Source: the human T2T-CHM13v2.0 reference genome, Homo sapiens. Taken from it: a DNA stretch of 64,000 nt. The DNA is taken from the NCBI RefSeq assembly GCF_009914755.1, contig NC_060925.1. One strand, written 5' to 3'. The notes under the pieces were generated by a model. That model saw only the letters and a program-made list of their open reading frames with translations. It did no database searches and was not told the origin of the DNA. This document shows, piece after piece, positions 46,657 to 52,514 of the stretch. The first letter of the stretch is position 1. Each line of letters opens with the position of its first letter. Made by a program: the position numbers and the translations under genes.

Positions 46657-46791
46657 ATTTATTTATTTTTTTAAAAGATAAACAGTTATTCATTTTTGTT
46701 TAAGACATCAGGAGTACTAATAAAGAACCAACTGGTAAACTGCTGATAATTCCATATAATATATCTAGCACTACAACTACACTGAATCATT
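46657..46791 (-). pseudogene. Probable 3' part of the same retrocopy (short terminal segment and decayed poly(A)), displaced by the L1
   Basis: Contiguous with 52297-52514 once the L1 and one TSD are removed. Variant signal AATGAA (TTCATT at 46689-46694) lies about 17 nt before an A-rich tail. Candidate TSD TATTTATTTATTTTTT at 46641-46656 and 52515-52530. Confidence 0.65.
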
Positions 46792-47008
46792 CCTTTTTTT
46801 TTTTTAATACTTTAAGTTTTAGGGTACATGTGCACATTGTGCAGGTTAGTTACATATGTATACATGTGCCATGCTGGTGCGCTGCACCCACTAACTCGTC
46901 ATCTAGCATTAGGTATATCTCCCAATGCTATCCCTCCCCACTCCCCCAACCCCACCACAGTCCCCAGAGTGTGATATTCCCCTTCCTGTGTCCATGTGAT
47001 CTCATTGT

Positions 47009-50000
47009 TCAATTCCCACCTATGAGTGAGAATATGCGGTGTTTGGTTTTTTGTTCTTGCGATAGTTTACTGAGAATGATGGTTTCCAATTTCATCCATG
47101 TCCCTACAAAGGACATGAACTCATCATTTTTTATGGCTGCATAGTATTCCATGGTGTATATGTGCCACATTTTCTTAATCCAGTCTATCATTGTTGGACA
47201 TTTGGGTTGGTTCCAAGTCTTTGCTATTGTGAATAATGCCGCAATAAACATACGTGTGCATGTGTCTTTATAGCAGCATGATTTATAGTCATTTGGGTAT
47301 ATACCCAGTAATGGGATGGCTGGGTCAAATGGTATTTCTAGTTCTAGATCCCTGAGGAATCACCACACTGACTTCCACAATGGTTGAACTAGTTTACAGT
47401 CCCACCAACAGTGTAAAAGTGTTCCTATTTCTCCACATCCTCTCCAGCACCTGTTGTTTCCTGACTTTTTAATGATTGCCATTCTAACTGGTGTGAGATG
47501 ATATCTCATAGTGGTTTTGATTTGCATTTCTCTGATGGCCAGTGATGATGAGCATTTTTTCATGTGTTTTTTGGCTGCATAAATGTCTTCTTTTGAGAAG
47601 TGTCTGTTCATGTCCTTCACCCACTTTTTGATGGGGTTGTTTGTTTTTTTCTTGTAAATTTGTTTGAGTTCATTGTAGATTCTGGATATTAGCCCTTTGT
47701 CAGATGAGTAGGTTGCAAAAATTTTCTCCCATGTTGTAGGTTGCCTGTTCACTCTGATGGTAGTTTCTTTTGCTGTGCAGAAGCTCTTTAGTTTTATGAG
47801 ATCCCATTTGTCAATTTTGGCTTTTGTTGCCATTGCTTTTGGTGTTTTGGACATGAAGTCCTTGCCCACGCCTATGTCCTGAATGGTAATGCCTAGGTTT
47901 TCTTCTAGGGTTTTTATGGTTTTAGGTCTAACGGTTAAATCTTTAATCCATCTTGAATTGATTTTTGTATAAGGTGTAAGGAAGGGATCCAGTTTCAGCT
48001 TTCTACATATGGCTAGCCAGTTTTCCCAGCACCATTTATTAAATAAGGAATCCTTTCCCCATTGCTTGTTTTTCTCAGGTTTGTCAAAGATCAGATAGTT
48101 GTAGGTATGCGGCGTTATTTCTGAGGGCTCTGTTCTGTTCCATTGATCTATATCTCTTTTGGTACCAGTACCATGCTGTTTTGCTTACTGTAGCCTTGTA
48201 GTATAGTTTGAAGTCAGGTAGTGTGATGCCTCCAGCTTTGTTCTTTTGGCTTAGGATTGACTTGGCGATGCGGGCTCTTTTTTGGTTCCATATGAACTTT
48301 AAAGTAGTTTTTTCCAATTCTGTGAAGAAAGTCATTGGTAGCTTGATGGGGATGGCATTGAATCTGTAAATTACCTTGGGCAGTATGGCCATTTTCACGA
48401 TATTGATTCTTCCTACCCATGAGCATGGAATGTTCTTCCATTTGTTTGTATCCTCTTTTATTTCCTTGAGCAATGGTTTGTAGTTCTCCTTGAAGAGGTC
48501 CTTCACATCCCTTGTAAGTTGGATTCCTAGGTATTTTATTCTCTTTGAAGCAATTGTGAATGGGAGTTCACTCATGATTTGGCTCTCTGTTTGTCTGTTG
48601 TTGGTGTATAAGAATGCTTGTGATTTTTGTACATTGATTTTGTATCCTGAGACTTTGCTGAAGTTGCTTATCAGCTTAAGGAGATTTTGGGCTGAGACGA
48701 TGGGGTTTTCTAGATAAACAATCATGTCATCTGCAAACAGGGACAATTTGACTTCCTCTTTTCCTAATTGAATACCCTTTATTTCCTTCTCCTGCCTGAT
48801 TGCCCTGGCCAGAACTTCCAACACTATGTTGAATAGGAGTGGTGAGAGAGGGCATCCCTGTCTTGTGCCAGTTTTCAAAGGGAATGCTTCCAGTTTTTGC
48901 CCATTCAGTATGATATTGGCTGTGGGTTTGTCATAGATAGCTCTTATTATTTTGAAATACGTCCCATCAATACCTAATTTATTGAGAGTTTTTAGCATGA
49001 AGGGTTGTTGAATTTTGTCAAAGGCTTTTTCTGCATCTATTGAGATAATCATGTGGTTTTTGTCTTTGGCTCTGTTTATATGCTGGATTACATTTATTGA
49101 TTTGCGTATATTGAACCAGCCTTGCATCCCAGGGATGAAGCCCACTTGATCATGGTGGATAAGCTTTTTGATGTGCTGCTGGATTCGGTTTGCCAGTATT
49201 TTATTGAGGATTTTTGCATCAATGTTCATCAAGGATATTGGTCTAAAATTCTCTTTTTTGGTTGTGTCTCTGCCCGGCTTTGGTATCAGAATGATGCTGG
49301 CCTCATAAAATGAGTTAGGGAGGATTCCCTCTTTTTCTATTGATTGGAATAGTTTCAGAAGGAATGGTACCAGTTCCTCCTTGTACCTCTGGTAGAATTC
49401 AGCTGTGAATCCATCTGGTCCTGGACTCTTTTTGGTTGGTAAACTATTGATTATTGCCACAATTTCAGCTCCTGTTATTGGTCTATTCAGAGATTCAACT
49501 TCTTCCTGGTTTAGTCTTGGGAGAGTGTATGTGTCGAGGAATGTATCCATTTCTTCTAGATTTTCTAGTTTATTTGCGTAGAGGTGTTTGTAGTATTCTC
49601 TGATGGTAGTTTGTATTTCTGTGGGATCAGTGGTGATATCCCCTTTATCATTTTTTATTGTGTCTGTTTGATTCTTCTCTCTTTTTTTCTTTATTAGTCT
49701 TGCTAGCGGTCTATCAATTTTGTTGATCCTTTCAAAAAACCAGCTCCTGGATTCATTGATTTTTTGAAGGGTTTTTTGTGTCTCTATTTCCTTCAGTTCT
49801 GCTCTGATTTTAGTTATTTCTTGCCTTCTGCTAGCTTTTGAATGTGTTTGCTCTTGCTTTTCTAGTTCTTTTAATTGTGATGTTAGGGTGTCAATTTTGG
49901 ATCTTTCCTGCTTTCTCTTGTGGGCATTTAGTGCTATAAATTTCCCTCTACACACTGCTTTGAATGCGTCCCAGAGATTCTGGTATGTTGTGTGTTTTTT

Positions 50001-50897: not shown

Positions 50898-51914
50898 TTA
50901 CATTTTGGCATGATTTTGCAGTGGCTGGTACCGGTTGTTCCTTTCCATGTTTAGCACTTCCTTCAGGAGCTCTTTTAGGGCAGGCCTGGTGGTGACAAAA
51001 TCTCTCAGCATTTGCTTGTCTGTAAAGTATTTTATTTCTCCTTCTCTTATGAAGCTTAGTTTGGCTGGATATGAAATTCTGGGTTGAAAATTCTTTTCTT
51101 TAAGAATGTTGAATATTGGCCCCCACTCTCTTCTGGCTTGTAGGGTTTCTGCCGAGAGATCCACTGTTAGTCTGATGGGCTTCCCTTTGAGGGTAACCCG
51201 ACCTTTCTCTCTGGCTGCCCTTAACATTTTTTCCTTCATTTCAACTTTGGTGAATCTGACAGTTATGTGTCTTCGAGTTGCTCTTCTTCAGGAGTATCTT
51301 TGTGGCATTCTCTGTATTTCCTGAATCTGAACGTTGGCCTGCCTTGTTAGATTGGGGAAGTTCTCCTGGATAATATCCTGCAGAGTGTTTTCCAACTTGG
51401 TTCCATTCTCCCCATCACTTTCAGGTACACCAATCAGACGTAGATTTGGTCTTTTCACATAGTCCCATATTTCTTGGAGGCTTTGCTCATTTCTTTTTAT
51501 TCTTTTTTCTCTAACCTTCCCTTCTGGCTTCATTTCATTCATTTCATCTTCCATTGCTGATACCCTTTCTTCCAGTTGATCGCATCGGCTCCTGAGGCTT
51601 CTGCATTCTTCACGTAGTTCTCGAGCCTTGGTTTTCAGCTCCATCAGCTCCTTTAAGCACTTCTCTGTATTGGTTATTCTAGTTATACATTCTTCTAAAC
51701 TTTTTTCAAAGTTTTCAACTTCTTTGCCTTTGGTTTGAATTTCCTCCCGTAGCTCAGAGTAATTTGATCGTCTGAAGCCTTCTTCTCTCAGCTCGTCAAA
51801 ATCATTCTCCATCCATCTTTGTTCCGTTACTGGTGAGAAACTGCGTTCCTTTGGAGGAGGAGAGGCGCTCTGCGTTTTAGAGTTTCCAGTTTTTCTGTTC
51901 TGTTTTTTCCCCAT
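50898..51914 (-). pseudogene. L1 ORF1p with in-frame stop at codon 209
   Basis: 1017-nt span MGKKQNRK...NHAKM; TGA at 51288-51290 splits it into the 208-aa and 113-aa ORFs of the track, which are in the same frame. Confidence 0.93.
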
Positions 51915-52296
51915 CTTTGTGGTTTTCTCTACTTTTGGTCTTTGATGATGGTGATGTACAGATGGGTTTTCGGTGTGGATGTCCTTTCTGTTTGTTAGTT
52001 TTCCTTCTAACAGACAGGACCCTCAGCTGCAGGTCTGTTGGAATACCCTGCTGTGTGAGGTGTCAGTGTGCCCCTGCTGGGGGGTGCCTCCCAGTTAGGC
52101 TGCTCGGGGGTCAGGGATCAGGGACCCACTTGAGGAGGCAGTCTGCCCGTTCTCAGATCTCCAGCTGCCTGCTGGGAGAACCACTGCTCTCTTCAAAGCT
52201 CAGATGGAAATGCAGAAATCACCCGTCTTCTGTGTCGCTCACGCTGGGAGCTGTAGACCGGAGCTGTTCCTATTCGGCCATATTGGCTCCTCCCCC

Positions 52297-52514
52297 CTAC
52301 ACTGAATCATTTATTTTGAGCCAGGGCTTGAAGCAGACAATCCAAGCATCCTTCTAAACTATCCTCAGTCTTGTCAACAGCTGTTATCTTCAGCTTCTTC
52401 AAGGTATCACTGAGATTATCCATGTTGCTCCCCGAGGGTGAGGAACTGGCGGGGTGAGGCGAAGGTCTCTGGTGCAGGCGGCACGGCTCTGTGTCCTCCC
52501 TCTACCTCCGTCTC
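52297..52514 (-). pseudogene. Retrocopy of RAP1GDS1 (SmgGDS) mRNA, 5' part: 5'UTR plus 38-codon ORF (52423 to 52307)
   Basis: Manual translation MDNLSDTLKKLKITAVDKTEDSLEGCLDCLLQALAQNK*; the first 37 aa match the recalled RAP1GDS1 N-terminus. About 90 nt of GC-rich leader with AGCAACATGG start context; no intron. Confidence 0.88.

What the first reader, a model, noticed from the sequence alone, without database searches (positions are those of the whole stretch)
46657..52514. Hidden retrocopy of a truncated RAP1GDS1 (SmgGDS) transcript with an intact 38-codon ORF
Seen: just outside the L1 5' end, the minus strand carries a GC-rich leader and an ORF at 52423-52307, MDNLSDTLKKLKITAVDKTEDSLEGCLDCLLQALAQNK*, below the ORF-track cutoff. 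Removing the L1 joins it to about 105 nt more sequence with AATGAA and an A-rich tail. Recalled knowledge: the first 37 aa equal the RAP1GDS1 N-terminus, and the match ends where I recall exon 2 ending (c.112). Inference: this is not a normal 5'-truncated pseudogene. It looks like a complete copy (about 320 nt) of a short isoform made of exon 1, exon 2 and a cryptic terminal exon, i.e. a fossil of intronic polyadenylation in the parent gene. A fragment of a small-GTPase chaperone/GEF mRNA inside a RhoGAP-family gene is curious but may be coincidence.
Basis: partly seen in the sequence, partly recalled or inferred. Interest (0 to 1): 0.8.

Follow-up and report, generated by a model that had tools for sequence, protein, structure and literature searches.

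The report
L1 insertion carrying spliced RAP1GDS1 exons
This is one jumping-gene (LINE-1) insertion that brought along the first two exons of the gene it came from, RAP1GDS1; it is not a gene retrocopy later split by a LINE-1, and this locus has already been described in print.

Summary
On the minus strand there is a GC-rich leader, a 38-codon ORF (52423-52307), a 5.5-kb L1, about 105 nt of unique sequence with AATGAA, and an A-rich tail.

The leader and ORF are RAP1GDS1 exons 1 and 2 (chr4), and the 3' piece maps to the same chr4 locus. The L1, however, is not a later insertion. On chr4 the same L1, with the same 15-nt flank, lies between a strong splice acceptor and that 3' piece. It aligns without a break to window 52311-46673 (98.2% over 5,642 columns).

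The whole 5.9-kb unit is therefore one retrotransposition of a RAP1GDS1 exon1-exon2-L1 chimeric RNA. It carries a spliced 5' transduction and a 3' transduction, is flanked by its own target-site duplication, and was later triplicated with SRGAP2. The L1 lacks 524 nt of its 5' UTR promoter (SpIRE97/622).

This is already published. Law et al., Cell Genomics 2026, list this locus, a chr10 sibling and the chr4 source. Larson et al. 2018 list the L1s.

Interest is low.

The parts
52517..52530 (-). 5' target-site duplication of the whole chimeric insertion (AAAAAATAAATAAA). It lies in the A-rich tail of an upstream repeat that I take to be an Alu, by recall.
   Evidence: One search gives the sequence. 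The same 14-mer is given as TSD_up for this locus in Table S5 of PMC13174262. One unmatched T (52516) follows it.
52420..52515 (-). Copy of RAP1GDS1 exon 1: 96 nt, made of a 5' UTR leader plus ATGG.
   Evidence: query 1-99 to C4:101576430-101576528, 94%. One search shows the chr4 match starting at AGAGACGG and exon 1 ending at ATGG followed by gtaagt. In the 94 nt ending at the ATG, SRGAP2C keeps 6 CpGs, against 10 in SRGAP2; the 100-nt chr4 exon-1 segment also holds 10.
52312..52419 (-). Copy of RAP1GDS1 exon 2 (108 nt), joined to exon 1 with no intron.
   Evidence: query 95-203 to C4:101608361-101608469, 100%. One search shows the chr4 acceptor ...aagcag and the donor CAAAATA followed by gtaagt.
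52307..52423 (-). 38-codon ORF: 37 RAP1GDS1 N-terminal codons, then K and a stop. The stop arises because exon 2 is spliced out of frame onto the 15 nt ahead of the L1.
   Evidence: The peptide is identical in 4 of 4 chimeric copies. No Pfam family and no PDB chain matched.
52297..52311 (-). 15 nt of RAP1GDS1 intron 2 (AATGATTCAGTGTAG) lying between the cryptic acceptor and the source L1. It is the source element's 5' target-site duplication, carried along in the RNA.
   Evidence: on chr4 the sequence reads ...ttctcttttcag, then AATGATTCAGTGTAG, then the L1 start; mapped to chr4:98320417-98320431 in Table S5.
46806..52296 (-). L1 body, called L1PA2 in the two papers. It is full length except for a spliced-out 524-nt stretch of the 5' UTR (junction 52199|52198; SpIRE97/622). 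Both ORFs are broken in this copy.
   Evidence: 523-524 nt are missing relative to 10 of 10 unspliced comparison L1s, and the missing stretch is bounded by gt and ag; the ORF pieces are 208 and 113 aa (ORF1 region) and 916, 164 and 80 aa (ORF2 region). Pfam finds the L1 ORF1 domains, Exo_endo_phos and RVT_1; 98.2% identity to the chr4 element.
46794..46805 (-). The L1's own A-tract (12 A). The chimeric RNA read through it.
   Evidence: One search compares the L1 3' ends of the five copies.
46673..46793 (-). 3' transduction: chr4 sequence downstream of the source L1. It holds the source's 3' target-site duplication (46791-46777) and the poly(A)-signal-like AATGAA/AATAAC (46694-46685), and ends at the cleavage site after ATCTTTT.
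   Evidence: 98% to C4:101640893-101641011. One search shows that chr4 continues with non-A sequence (ctcaaag...), so the A-tail here was added to RNA..
46657..46672 (-). Poly(A) tail of the chimeric RNA, now degenerate (A7 TAAATAAAT).
   Evidence: It is absent from chr4 at the corresponding place.
46643..46656 (-). 3' target-site duplication of the whole chimeric insertion (AAAAAATAAATAAA).
   Evidence: Listed as TSD_dn in Table S5 of PMC13174262. I placed it in window coordinates by a constant offset from the L1 coordinates.

Best explanation
Window 52530-46643 (minus strand, antisense in an SRGAP2C intron) is a single L1 retrotransposition event.

The source is an L1PA2 element in intron 2 of RAP1GDS1 on chr4, in the same orientation as the gene. 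That element had itself lost 524 nt of its 5' UTR promoter by splicing (SpIRE97/622).

Transcription from the RAP1GDS1 promoter produced an RNA in which exon 1 and exon 2 were spliced to a cryptic acceptor 15 nt upstream of the L1. The RNA ran through the whole L1, past the L1's own A-tract, and was cleaved about 16 nt after an AATGAA/AATAAT signal roughly 105 nt downstream.

This 5.9-kb RNA was reverse-transcribed into a TT/AAAA site in ancestral SRGAP2, making the 14-bp duplication AAAAAATAAATAAA. The SRGAP2 segmental duplications then copied it into SRGAP2B and SRGAP2C.

The 38-codon ORF is a by-product. Exon 2 joins the 15-nt flank out of frame, giving AAA TGA.

**Shown here:** the structure, the mapping, the splice signals, the duplications and the sibling insertions.
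**Taken from the literature:** long-read RNA evidence for the chimeric RNA, and the loss of promoter activity in such spliced L1s.
For: 1. **Exons.** The 5' 220 nt split over two chr4 pieces 32 kb apart, and the boundaries fall at gtaagt donors and an ag acceptor.
2. **The L1 is in the parent locus.** C4:101635380-101641011 aligns in one piece with window 52311-46673 (98.2%, 5,642 columns). That stretch covers the 15-mer, the L1, the A-tract, the 15-mer again and the 3' flank.
3. **Acceptor.** On chr4, ttctcttttcag sits immediately before the 15-mer.
4. **RNA origin of the tail.** After ATCTTTT, chr4 continues with non-A sequence, whereas the window has an A-tail followed by the target-site duplication.
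5. **chr10 sibling.** It has the same exon1-exon2-L1-flank structure but its own duplication (GAAAGTCTGTTT), a 5' end 13 nt shorter and a cleavage site 7 nt earlier.
6. **chr2 sibling.** It holds 156 nt of L1 3' end, an A-tract, 205 nt of chr4 flank, poly(A) and its own duplication AAAATGCAGAAACTA.
7. **Spliced 5' UTR.** The deletion is bounded by gt and ag in 10 of 10 unspliced L1s.
8. **L1 domains.** Pfam finds them in the ORF pieces.
9. **Print.** PMC13174262, section 14 (read in full) and Table S5 (passages and part 1 of 3), describe this locus, the chr10 sibling, the chr4 source, the acceptor 15 bp upstream, and three long RNA reads joining RAP1GDS1 exons to the L1. A supplementary table of PMC5860796 lists the chr4 and SRGAP2B elements as SpIRE(97/622)-35 and -6 (passages).
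Against: - Nothing structural contradicts this reading.
- Present-day chr4 keeps only 12 nt of the 3' repeat (GATTCAGTGTAG), whereas the offspring carry 13-16 nt. This needs a small later loss on chr4.
- Branch lengths are uneven. In the polarised site counts, chr10 has 52 private changes against 32 for chr4, and the SRGAP2 copy has only 15. Dating from these counts is therefore rough.
- Promoter use is not shown by sequence.
- I did not locate the canonical exon 3 myself. That the source lies in intron 2 rests on the paper.
Confidence: 0.96

Rival explanations
1. A 320-nt processed retrocopy of a short RAP1GDS1 isoform (exon 1, exon 2 and a small cryptic terminal exon) landed in SRGAP2. A full-length L1 later inserted into it and made the 15-bp duplication AATGATTCAGTGTAG in situ.
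For: - In the window alone the L1 is flanked by a perfect 15-mer repeat, and removing it gives a continuous sequence.
- Larson et al. scored the SRGAP2B copy in the same way: TSD 14, no transduction (supplementary table passage).
Against: - The same L1, with the same flanking repeat and the same 5' UTR splice deletion, sits at the corresponding place in the parent locus on chr4 and in the chr10 sibling.
- Under this model the same element would have had to hit the same nucleotide three times.
- The chr2 sibling carries the L1 3' end together with a longer stretch of chr4 flank. That is only possible if the L1 was on chr4.
Confidence: 0.01
2. A template-switch chimera. During reverse transcription of an L1 RNA, the enzyme jumped onto an unrelated RAP1GDS1 mRNA, as in U6/L1 chimeras, rather than copying one cis-spliced RNA.
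For: Chimeras of L1 with other RNAs formed by template switching are an established class. This is my recall, and it is also the general topic of PMC13174262 (abstract).
Against: - The junction falls exactly at the exon 2 donor and at an AG acceptor 15 nt upstream of an L1 that lies in the same gene and in the same orientation.
- Two independent insertions (chr1, chr10) share the identical junction.
- Three long RNA reads with this junction are reported.
Confidence: 0.02
3. The chr10 copy is a daughter of the chr1 copy, or the reverse. That would be serial retrotransposition of the chimera from its new site, rather than both copies coming from chr4.
For: The two share the same overall structure. 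The chr10 copy is shorter at both ends than the chr1 copy, as a daughter could be.
Against: - In the polarised site patterns over 5,347 L1 columns, only 1 site is derived in chr1 and chr10 together, against 32 sites derived in chr4 alone.
- Five sites (4 of them not CpG transitions) are derived in chr4 and chr10 together but not in chr1. This fits chr1 leaving the chr4 lineage first and chr10 leaving it later.
- In the leader, chr10 agrees with chr4 where the chr1 trio shares CACCAGAG for CACCACAG.
Confidence: 0.05

Closest known systems
RAP1GDS1/L1PA2 chimeric insertions of Law et al., Cell Genomics 2026 (PMC13174262; preprint 10.1101/2025.02.02.635956)
   Same: This is the same object. Their Table S5 row gives hg38 chr1:121309426-121314928 (minus strand), TSD AAAAAATAAATAAA, and a non-L1 220 nt mapped to RAP1GDS1 exons 1-2 plus chr4:98320417-98320431. 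They also report the same chr10 sibling, the same source in intron 2 and the same acceptor 15 bp upstream.
   Different: In what I read (section 14 in full, term searches of the main text, and passages and part 1 of 3 of Table S5), the 3' flank is not called a 3' transduction and no chr2 offspring is mentioned. The supplementary PDFs and the figures were not visible to me.
SpIRE97/622 (spliced integrated retrotransposed elements; Larson et al., PLoS Biol 2018, PMC5860796)
   Same: The L1 lacks the 5' UTR stretch between a gt donor and an ag acceptor (524 nt), as checked here. Their table lists the chr4 element as SpIRE(97/622)-35 and the SRGAP2B copy as SpIRE(97/622)-6.
   Different: Typical SpIREs are regarded as dead on arrival (Law et al.). 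This one produced at least three offspring. Their table scores the SRGAP2B copy as an ordinary insertion with a 14-bp duplication and no transduction. The chr4 comparison shows that this repeat was inherited from the source.
L1 5' and 3' transduction
   Same: Flanking source-locus sequence is carried on both sides of the L1, inside one set of target-site duplications and ahead of one terminal poly(A).
   Different: The 5' transduced part is not contiguous genomic flank. It consists of two host exons spliced onto an acceptor beside the L1.
Processed pseudogene (retrocopy) of a host mRNA
   Same: Intron-less exon 1-exon 2 junction, poly(A) tail and target-site duplication.
   Different: Only 204 nt of host exons are present, and they are attached to a full L1. 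The RNA could have been mobilised in cis by the L1's own proteins rather than in trans.

Membership tests
L1 insertion by target-primed reverse transcription, with transductions | Target-site duplication flanking the complete unit | tested here: met
   AAAAAATAAATAAA lies at 52530-52517 and at 46656-46643. The same pair is given in Table S5.
L1 insertion by target-primed reverse transcription, with transductions | Terminal poly(A) that is absent from the source locus | tested here: met
   An A-rich tail at 46672-46657 follows ATCTTTT. At the same point chr4 continues with ctcaaag.
L1 insertion by target-primed reverse transcription, with transductions | L1 ORF1 and ORF2 sequence | tested here: met
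   Pfam finds Tnp_22_trimer, Transposase_22, Tnp_22_dsRBD, Exo_endo_phos and RVT_1 in the ORF pieces. The frames are broken in this copy.
L1 insertion by target-primed reverse transcription, with transductions | Non-L1 flanks map next to a matching L1 at another locus | tested here: met
   One continuous 5,642-column alignment to chr4 covers both flanks and the L1.
SpIRE97/622 | Loss of the 5' UTR segment between the L1's own splice donor and acceptor | tested here: met
   523-524 nt are missing relative to 10 of 10 unspliced L1s, with CTGAG followed by gtacc on one side and ctgacag followed by CTTTGAA on the other.
   chr4 carries the same L1 at the same site.
   Exon 1 and exon 2 are joined at their chr4 splice sites.
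Template-switch L1 chimera (U6/L1 type) | A junction not determined by cis splice signals of the source locus | tested here: not met
   The junction lies at the exon 2 gt donor and at an ag acceptor 15 nt from the L1 in the same gene.
RAP1GDS1 (SmgGDS) coding sequence | The peptide equals the N-terminus of the annotated protein | tested here: inconclusive
   The DNA is 100% identical to chr4 exon 2, and the paper assigns the region to RAP1GDS1. No PDB chain or Pfam model covers these 38 residues. The match to the protein sequence itself rests on recall.

The most novel reading that the evidence does not exclude
The chr4 L1 lies between a host splice acceptor and a host poly(A) signal that together look like a ready-made cryptic terminal exon in RAP1GDS1 intron 2. 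Host signals would then replace the L1's own signals at both ends. Both 5'-chimeric offspring (2 of 2) end at that host signal. A third offspring on chr2 is 5'-truncated and recognisable only by a 205-nt 3' transduction; I did not find it mentioned in the two papers. Together they make a family of at least three insertions from one promoter-less element, with chr1 apparently the earliest. The chr1 insertion may only slightly predate the first SRGAP2 duplication, because just 1 derived site is shared by the three chr1 copies.
Probability: 0.55. Interest if true: 0.25.

Novelty: already known. Interest (0 to 1): 0.15.

Why it matters
The biology is of real interest. An L1 that had lost its own promoter was rescued by the promoter and splicing of its host gene, and it went on to retrotranspose several times. 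That point has already been made, for this locus, by Law et al. 2026.

For the scan, the value is a corrected reading:
- The apparent target-site duplication around the L1 is inherited from the source. The same trap affected the SRGAP2B entry in the 2018 SpIRE table.
- The small ORF is a splicing by-product, with no evidence of function.

The explicit 3' transduction and the chr2 offspring add slightly to the published family.

Tried and rejected
- **PDB search.** The 38-aa peptide against PDB sequences gave 0 matches at E up to 1, so it gives no independent confirmation of protein identity.
- **Pfam on minor ORFs.** Nothing was found for the 38-aa peptide, the plus-strand 131-aa ORF (51962-52357) or the 164-aa minus-strand ORF. 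I take the plus-strand ORF to be chance.
- **Segmental duplication as the origin of the chr10 copy.** Rejected: the alignment to the window stops at the insertion's ends, and the copy has its own duplication.
- **Further offspring.** I searched with the 86 nt of chr4 flank beyond the chr1 cleavage site. Only chr4 and chr2 matched, 2 of 2 candidates scored.
- **Dating by branch lengths.** The counts are too uneven for a firm date.
- **Not done.** I did not compare the ORF integrity of the sibling copies.
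Full report
**What is in the sequence.** Read on the minus strand from 52530 to 46643, the elements are, in order:
- a 14-nt A-rich repeat, AAAAAATAAATAAA;
- a GC-rich leader;
- an ATG at 52423 opening a 38-codon frame that stops at 52307;
- the 15-mer AATGATTCAGTGTAG;
- an L1 starting at its canonical 5' end (52296) and ending in 12 A (46805-46794);
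- GG, then the same 15-mer;
- about 105 nt of unique sequence containing AATGAA;
- a short degenerate A-tail;
- the 14-nt repeat again.

**Where the pieces come from.** The assembly holding the window could be searched.
- The 220 nt upstream of the L1 split into two chr4 matches 32 kb apart: query 1-99 at 94% (C4:101576430-101576528) and query 95-203 at 100% (C4:101608361-101608469).
- On chr4, the first piece ends at ATGG followed by gtaagt. The second is preceded by an ag and ends at CAAAATA followed by gtaagt. These are two exons joined without their intron.
- The 119 nt downstream of the L1 match chr4 at 98%, a further 32 kb on.
- The coordinates differ from the hg38 coordinates that Law et al. 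give for RAP1GDS1 exons 1 and 2 and the pre-L1 flank by a constant offset of about 3.315 Mb. This is the RAP1GDS1 locus.

**The decisive result.** On chr4 the sequence just upstream of the 3' piece is the 3' end and A-tract of an L1. I fetched 9.5 kb. C4:101635380-101641011 aligns in one block with window 52311-46673, at 98.2% over 5,642 columns. That block contains the 15-mer, the whole L1, the A-tract, the repeat and the 3' flank. Immediately before the 15-mer, chr4 reads ttctcttttcag, a pyrimidine tract followed by AG.

The L1 is therefore a resident of RAP1GDS1 intron 2, and the 15-mer repeat is its own target-site duplication. The RNA that was copied into chr1 was exon 1, exon 2, then everything from that acceptor through the L1 to a cleavage site about 105 nt beyond it. 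After ATCTTTT chr4 continues with ctcaaag, so the A-tail in the window was added to RNA. Removing the L1 to reveal a hidden 320-nt retrocopy is therefore the wrong operation.

**The L1 itself.**
- Pfam finds the L1 ORF1 domains, the endonuclease and the reverse transcriptase in the ORF pieces.
- In this copy both frames are broken. The pieces are 208 and 113 aa in the ORF1 region, and 916, 164 and 80 aa in the ORF2 region.
- The element is about 5.5 kb rather than about 6 kb. Compared with ten unspliced L1s from the same genome (the ten best non-self, non-sibling matches), it lacks 523-524 nt in 10 of 10 comparisons.
- The missing stretch begins with gtacc after CATCTGAG and ends with ctgacag before CTTTGAA. 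This is the intra-5'-UTR splice that Larson et al. 2018 call SpIRE97/622. chr4 shares the deletion.

**Siblings.**
- *chr1.* The two other chr1 matches lie in the other SRGAP2 paralogs (I assign them to SRGAP2 and SRGAP2B from their chromosomal positions, by recall). They share the window's flanks over the full 5.9 kb. They are copies made by segmental duplication, as Law et al. state.
- *chr10.* C10:45363553-45369388 has the same exon1-exon2-L1-flank structure (97.8% over 5,846 columns). It starts 13 nt further into exon 1, was cleaved 7 nt earlier, carries its own A-tail and its own 12-nt duplication GAAAGTCTGTTT, and sits inside an older L1.
- *chr2.* C2:233045853-233046212 holds only the last 156 nt of the L1, the A-tract, and 205 nt of chr4 flank. 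That is 86 nt more than chr1 or chr10 carry, so it can only come from chr4. It ends in poly(A) and is flanked by the 15-nt duplication AAAATGCAGAAACTA. A search with those extra 86 nt found only chr4 and chr2.

The searches with the transduced sequences found no other copies: 6 of 6 and 6 of 6 candidates scored. The tool warns that its counts are lower bounds.

**Relationships.** Over 5,347 L1 columns, states were polarised by at least 8 of the 10 comparison L1s; 9 variable columns were dropped because the comparison copies were ambiguous. The sites with a derived state were:

| Derived in | Sites |
|---|---|
| chr10 only | 52 |
| SRGAP2B only | 39 |
| chr4 only | 32 |
| SRGAP2C only | 26 |
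| SRGAP2 only | 15 |
| chr4 + chr10 | 5 (4 not CpG transitions) |
| SRGAP2B + SRGAP2C | 4 |
| the chr1 trio | 1 |
| chr1 trio + chr10 | 1 |
| other homoplastic patterns | 1-3 each |

This fits two independent departures from the chr4 lineage, chr1 first and chr10 later. It argues against a chr1-chr10 parent-daughter relationship. The single site on the chr1 stem suggests that the insertion only slightly predates the first SRGAP2 duplication. The branches are uneven, so I give no date.

**The small ORF and the leader.**
- The 38-codon frame is identical in 4 of 4 chimeric copies. It is only 117 nt long in copies that differ by about 1-2%, so its intactness carries no weight.
- Its stop arises because exon 2 is joined out of frame to the 15-nt flank. 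The chr4 chimeric RNA would encode the same peptide.
- In the 94 nt ending at the ATG, SRGAP2C keeps 6 CpGs, SRGAP2B 9 and SRGAP2 10; the 100-nt chr4 exon-1 segment holds 10. The losses in SRGAP2C are what unprotected, methylated DNA would show.
- The chr4 promoter upstream of the transcription start was not copied.
- I see no evidence of function for the ORF or the leader at this site.

**3' end usage.** The source family ends ...AAAGTATTAAAAA. It lacks the TAATAAT/AATAAA run seen in 8 of the 9 comparison L1s whose 3' ends the script found (the tenth, L023, gave no anchor match). Both insertions found through their 5' exons, a route independent of the 3' flank, carry the 3' transduction (2 of 2). 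The chr2 copy was found through the flank and so is not an unbiased case. That a weak L1 signal favoured read-through to the host signal is my inference.

**What is in print.**
- *Law et al., Cell Genomics 2026* (PMC13174262; preprint 10.1101/2025.02.02.635956). I read section 14 in full, passages of the preprint, term searches of the main text, and passages plus part 1 of 3 of Table S5. They describe two independent RAP1GDS1/L1PA2 insertions: chr10, and chr1 in three copies by segmental duplication. They also describe the source L1PA2 in intron 2, the cryptic acceptor 15 bp upstream, the 5' UTR deletion (99-624), its earlier listing as a SpIRE, and three long RNA reads joining RAP1GDS1 exons to the L1. 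They call it the first case of a transcriptionally disabled intronic L1 co-opting an external promoter. Table S5 gives this very locus.
- *Larson et al. 2018* (PMC5860796; supplementary table passages). They list SpIRE(97/622)-35 in RAP1GDS1 (same orientation, TSD 12) and SpIRE(97/622)-6 in SRGAP2B (opposite orientation, TSD 14, no transduction).
- *Other searches.* A search for papers holding RAP1GDS1, transduction and retrotransposition together counted 4 papers and listed 2 of them: Law et al., whose other two held versions appear on the same row, and one paper unrelated to this locus.
- *What I did not find.* In the parts I could read, 'chromosome 2' does not occur in the main text, and every passage with 'transduction' that I saw concerned 5' events, keywords or references. 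Figures and PDF supplements were not visible to me.

**Verdict.** The RAP1GDS1 identity and the intronic-polyadenylation idea are supported. The nested-insertion model is refuted, and the object is already published. The remaining additions are minor: the explicit 3' transduction, a chr2 offspring, the order of events, and the ancestral 15-16-nt duplication of the source, which is preserved in the offspring but shortened to 12 nt on present-day chr4.

Noticed in passing
G000:C2:233045853-233046212 (locus L015:7854-8213): A 5'-truncated L1 (156 nt) with an A-tract and 205 nt of RAP1GDS1 intron 2 flank, poly(A) and a 15-nt duplication AAAATGCAGAAACTA. It is a third offspring of the chr4 source, and I did not find it mentioned in the two papers read.
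   Followed up: yes
L013:8850-8900 (chr4 source, 3' junction), compared with window 46793-46777: Present-day chr4 keeps only GATTCAGTGTAG after the L1 A-tract. The chr1, chr2 and chr10 offspring keep 13-16 nt of the repeat (for example G AATGATTCAGTGTAG on chr2). The offspring therefore preserve the source's original junction, and the 12-bp duplication listed in 2018 is probably too short.
   Followed up: partly
G000:C8:68789109-68794591 and G000:C15:68552573-68557167 (rows; no loci kept): Two further L1s align to the window's L1 from its first base, across the 5' UTR splice junction, so they are also spliced (SpIRE-type) elements. By gene name or chromosome they may correspond to entries in the 2018 table. 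Any relationship to the chr4 lineage was not examined.
   Followed up: no
L021, L022, L025 (chr3, chr5, chr10 L1s used as comparison copies): Three full-length L1s on different chromosomes share the identical first 39 nt after the anchor, TAATAATAATAATAATT followed by an A-rich run (the 55 nt printed). This may point to a common recent source or to duplications.
   Followed up: no
window 52531-52700, minus strand: The insertion landed in the A-rich tail of an upstream repeat that looks like an Alu right arm. This identification is by recall and was not tested.
   Followed up: no
SRGAP2 paralog copies of the insertion: Private substitutions are markedly uneven among the three paralog copies: SRGAP2B 39, SRGAP2C 26 and SRGAP2 15 over 5,347 columns. 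The two pericentromeric duplicates have changed faster than the ancestral locus, or the ancestral copy has been homogenised.
   Followed up: no
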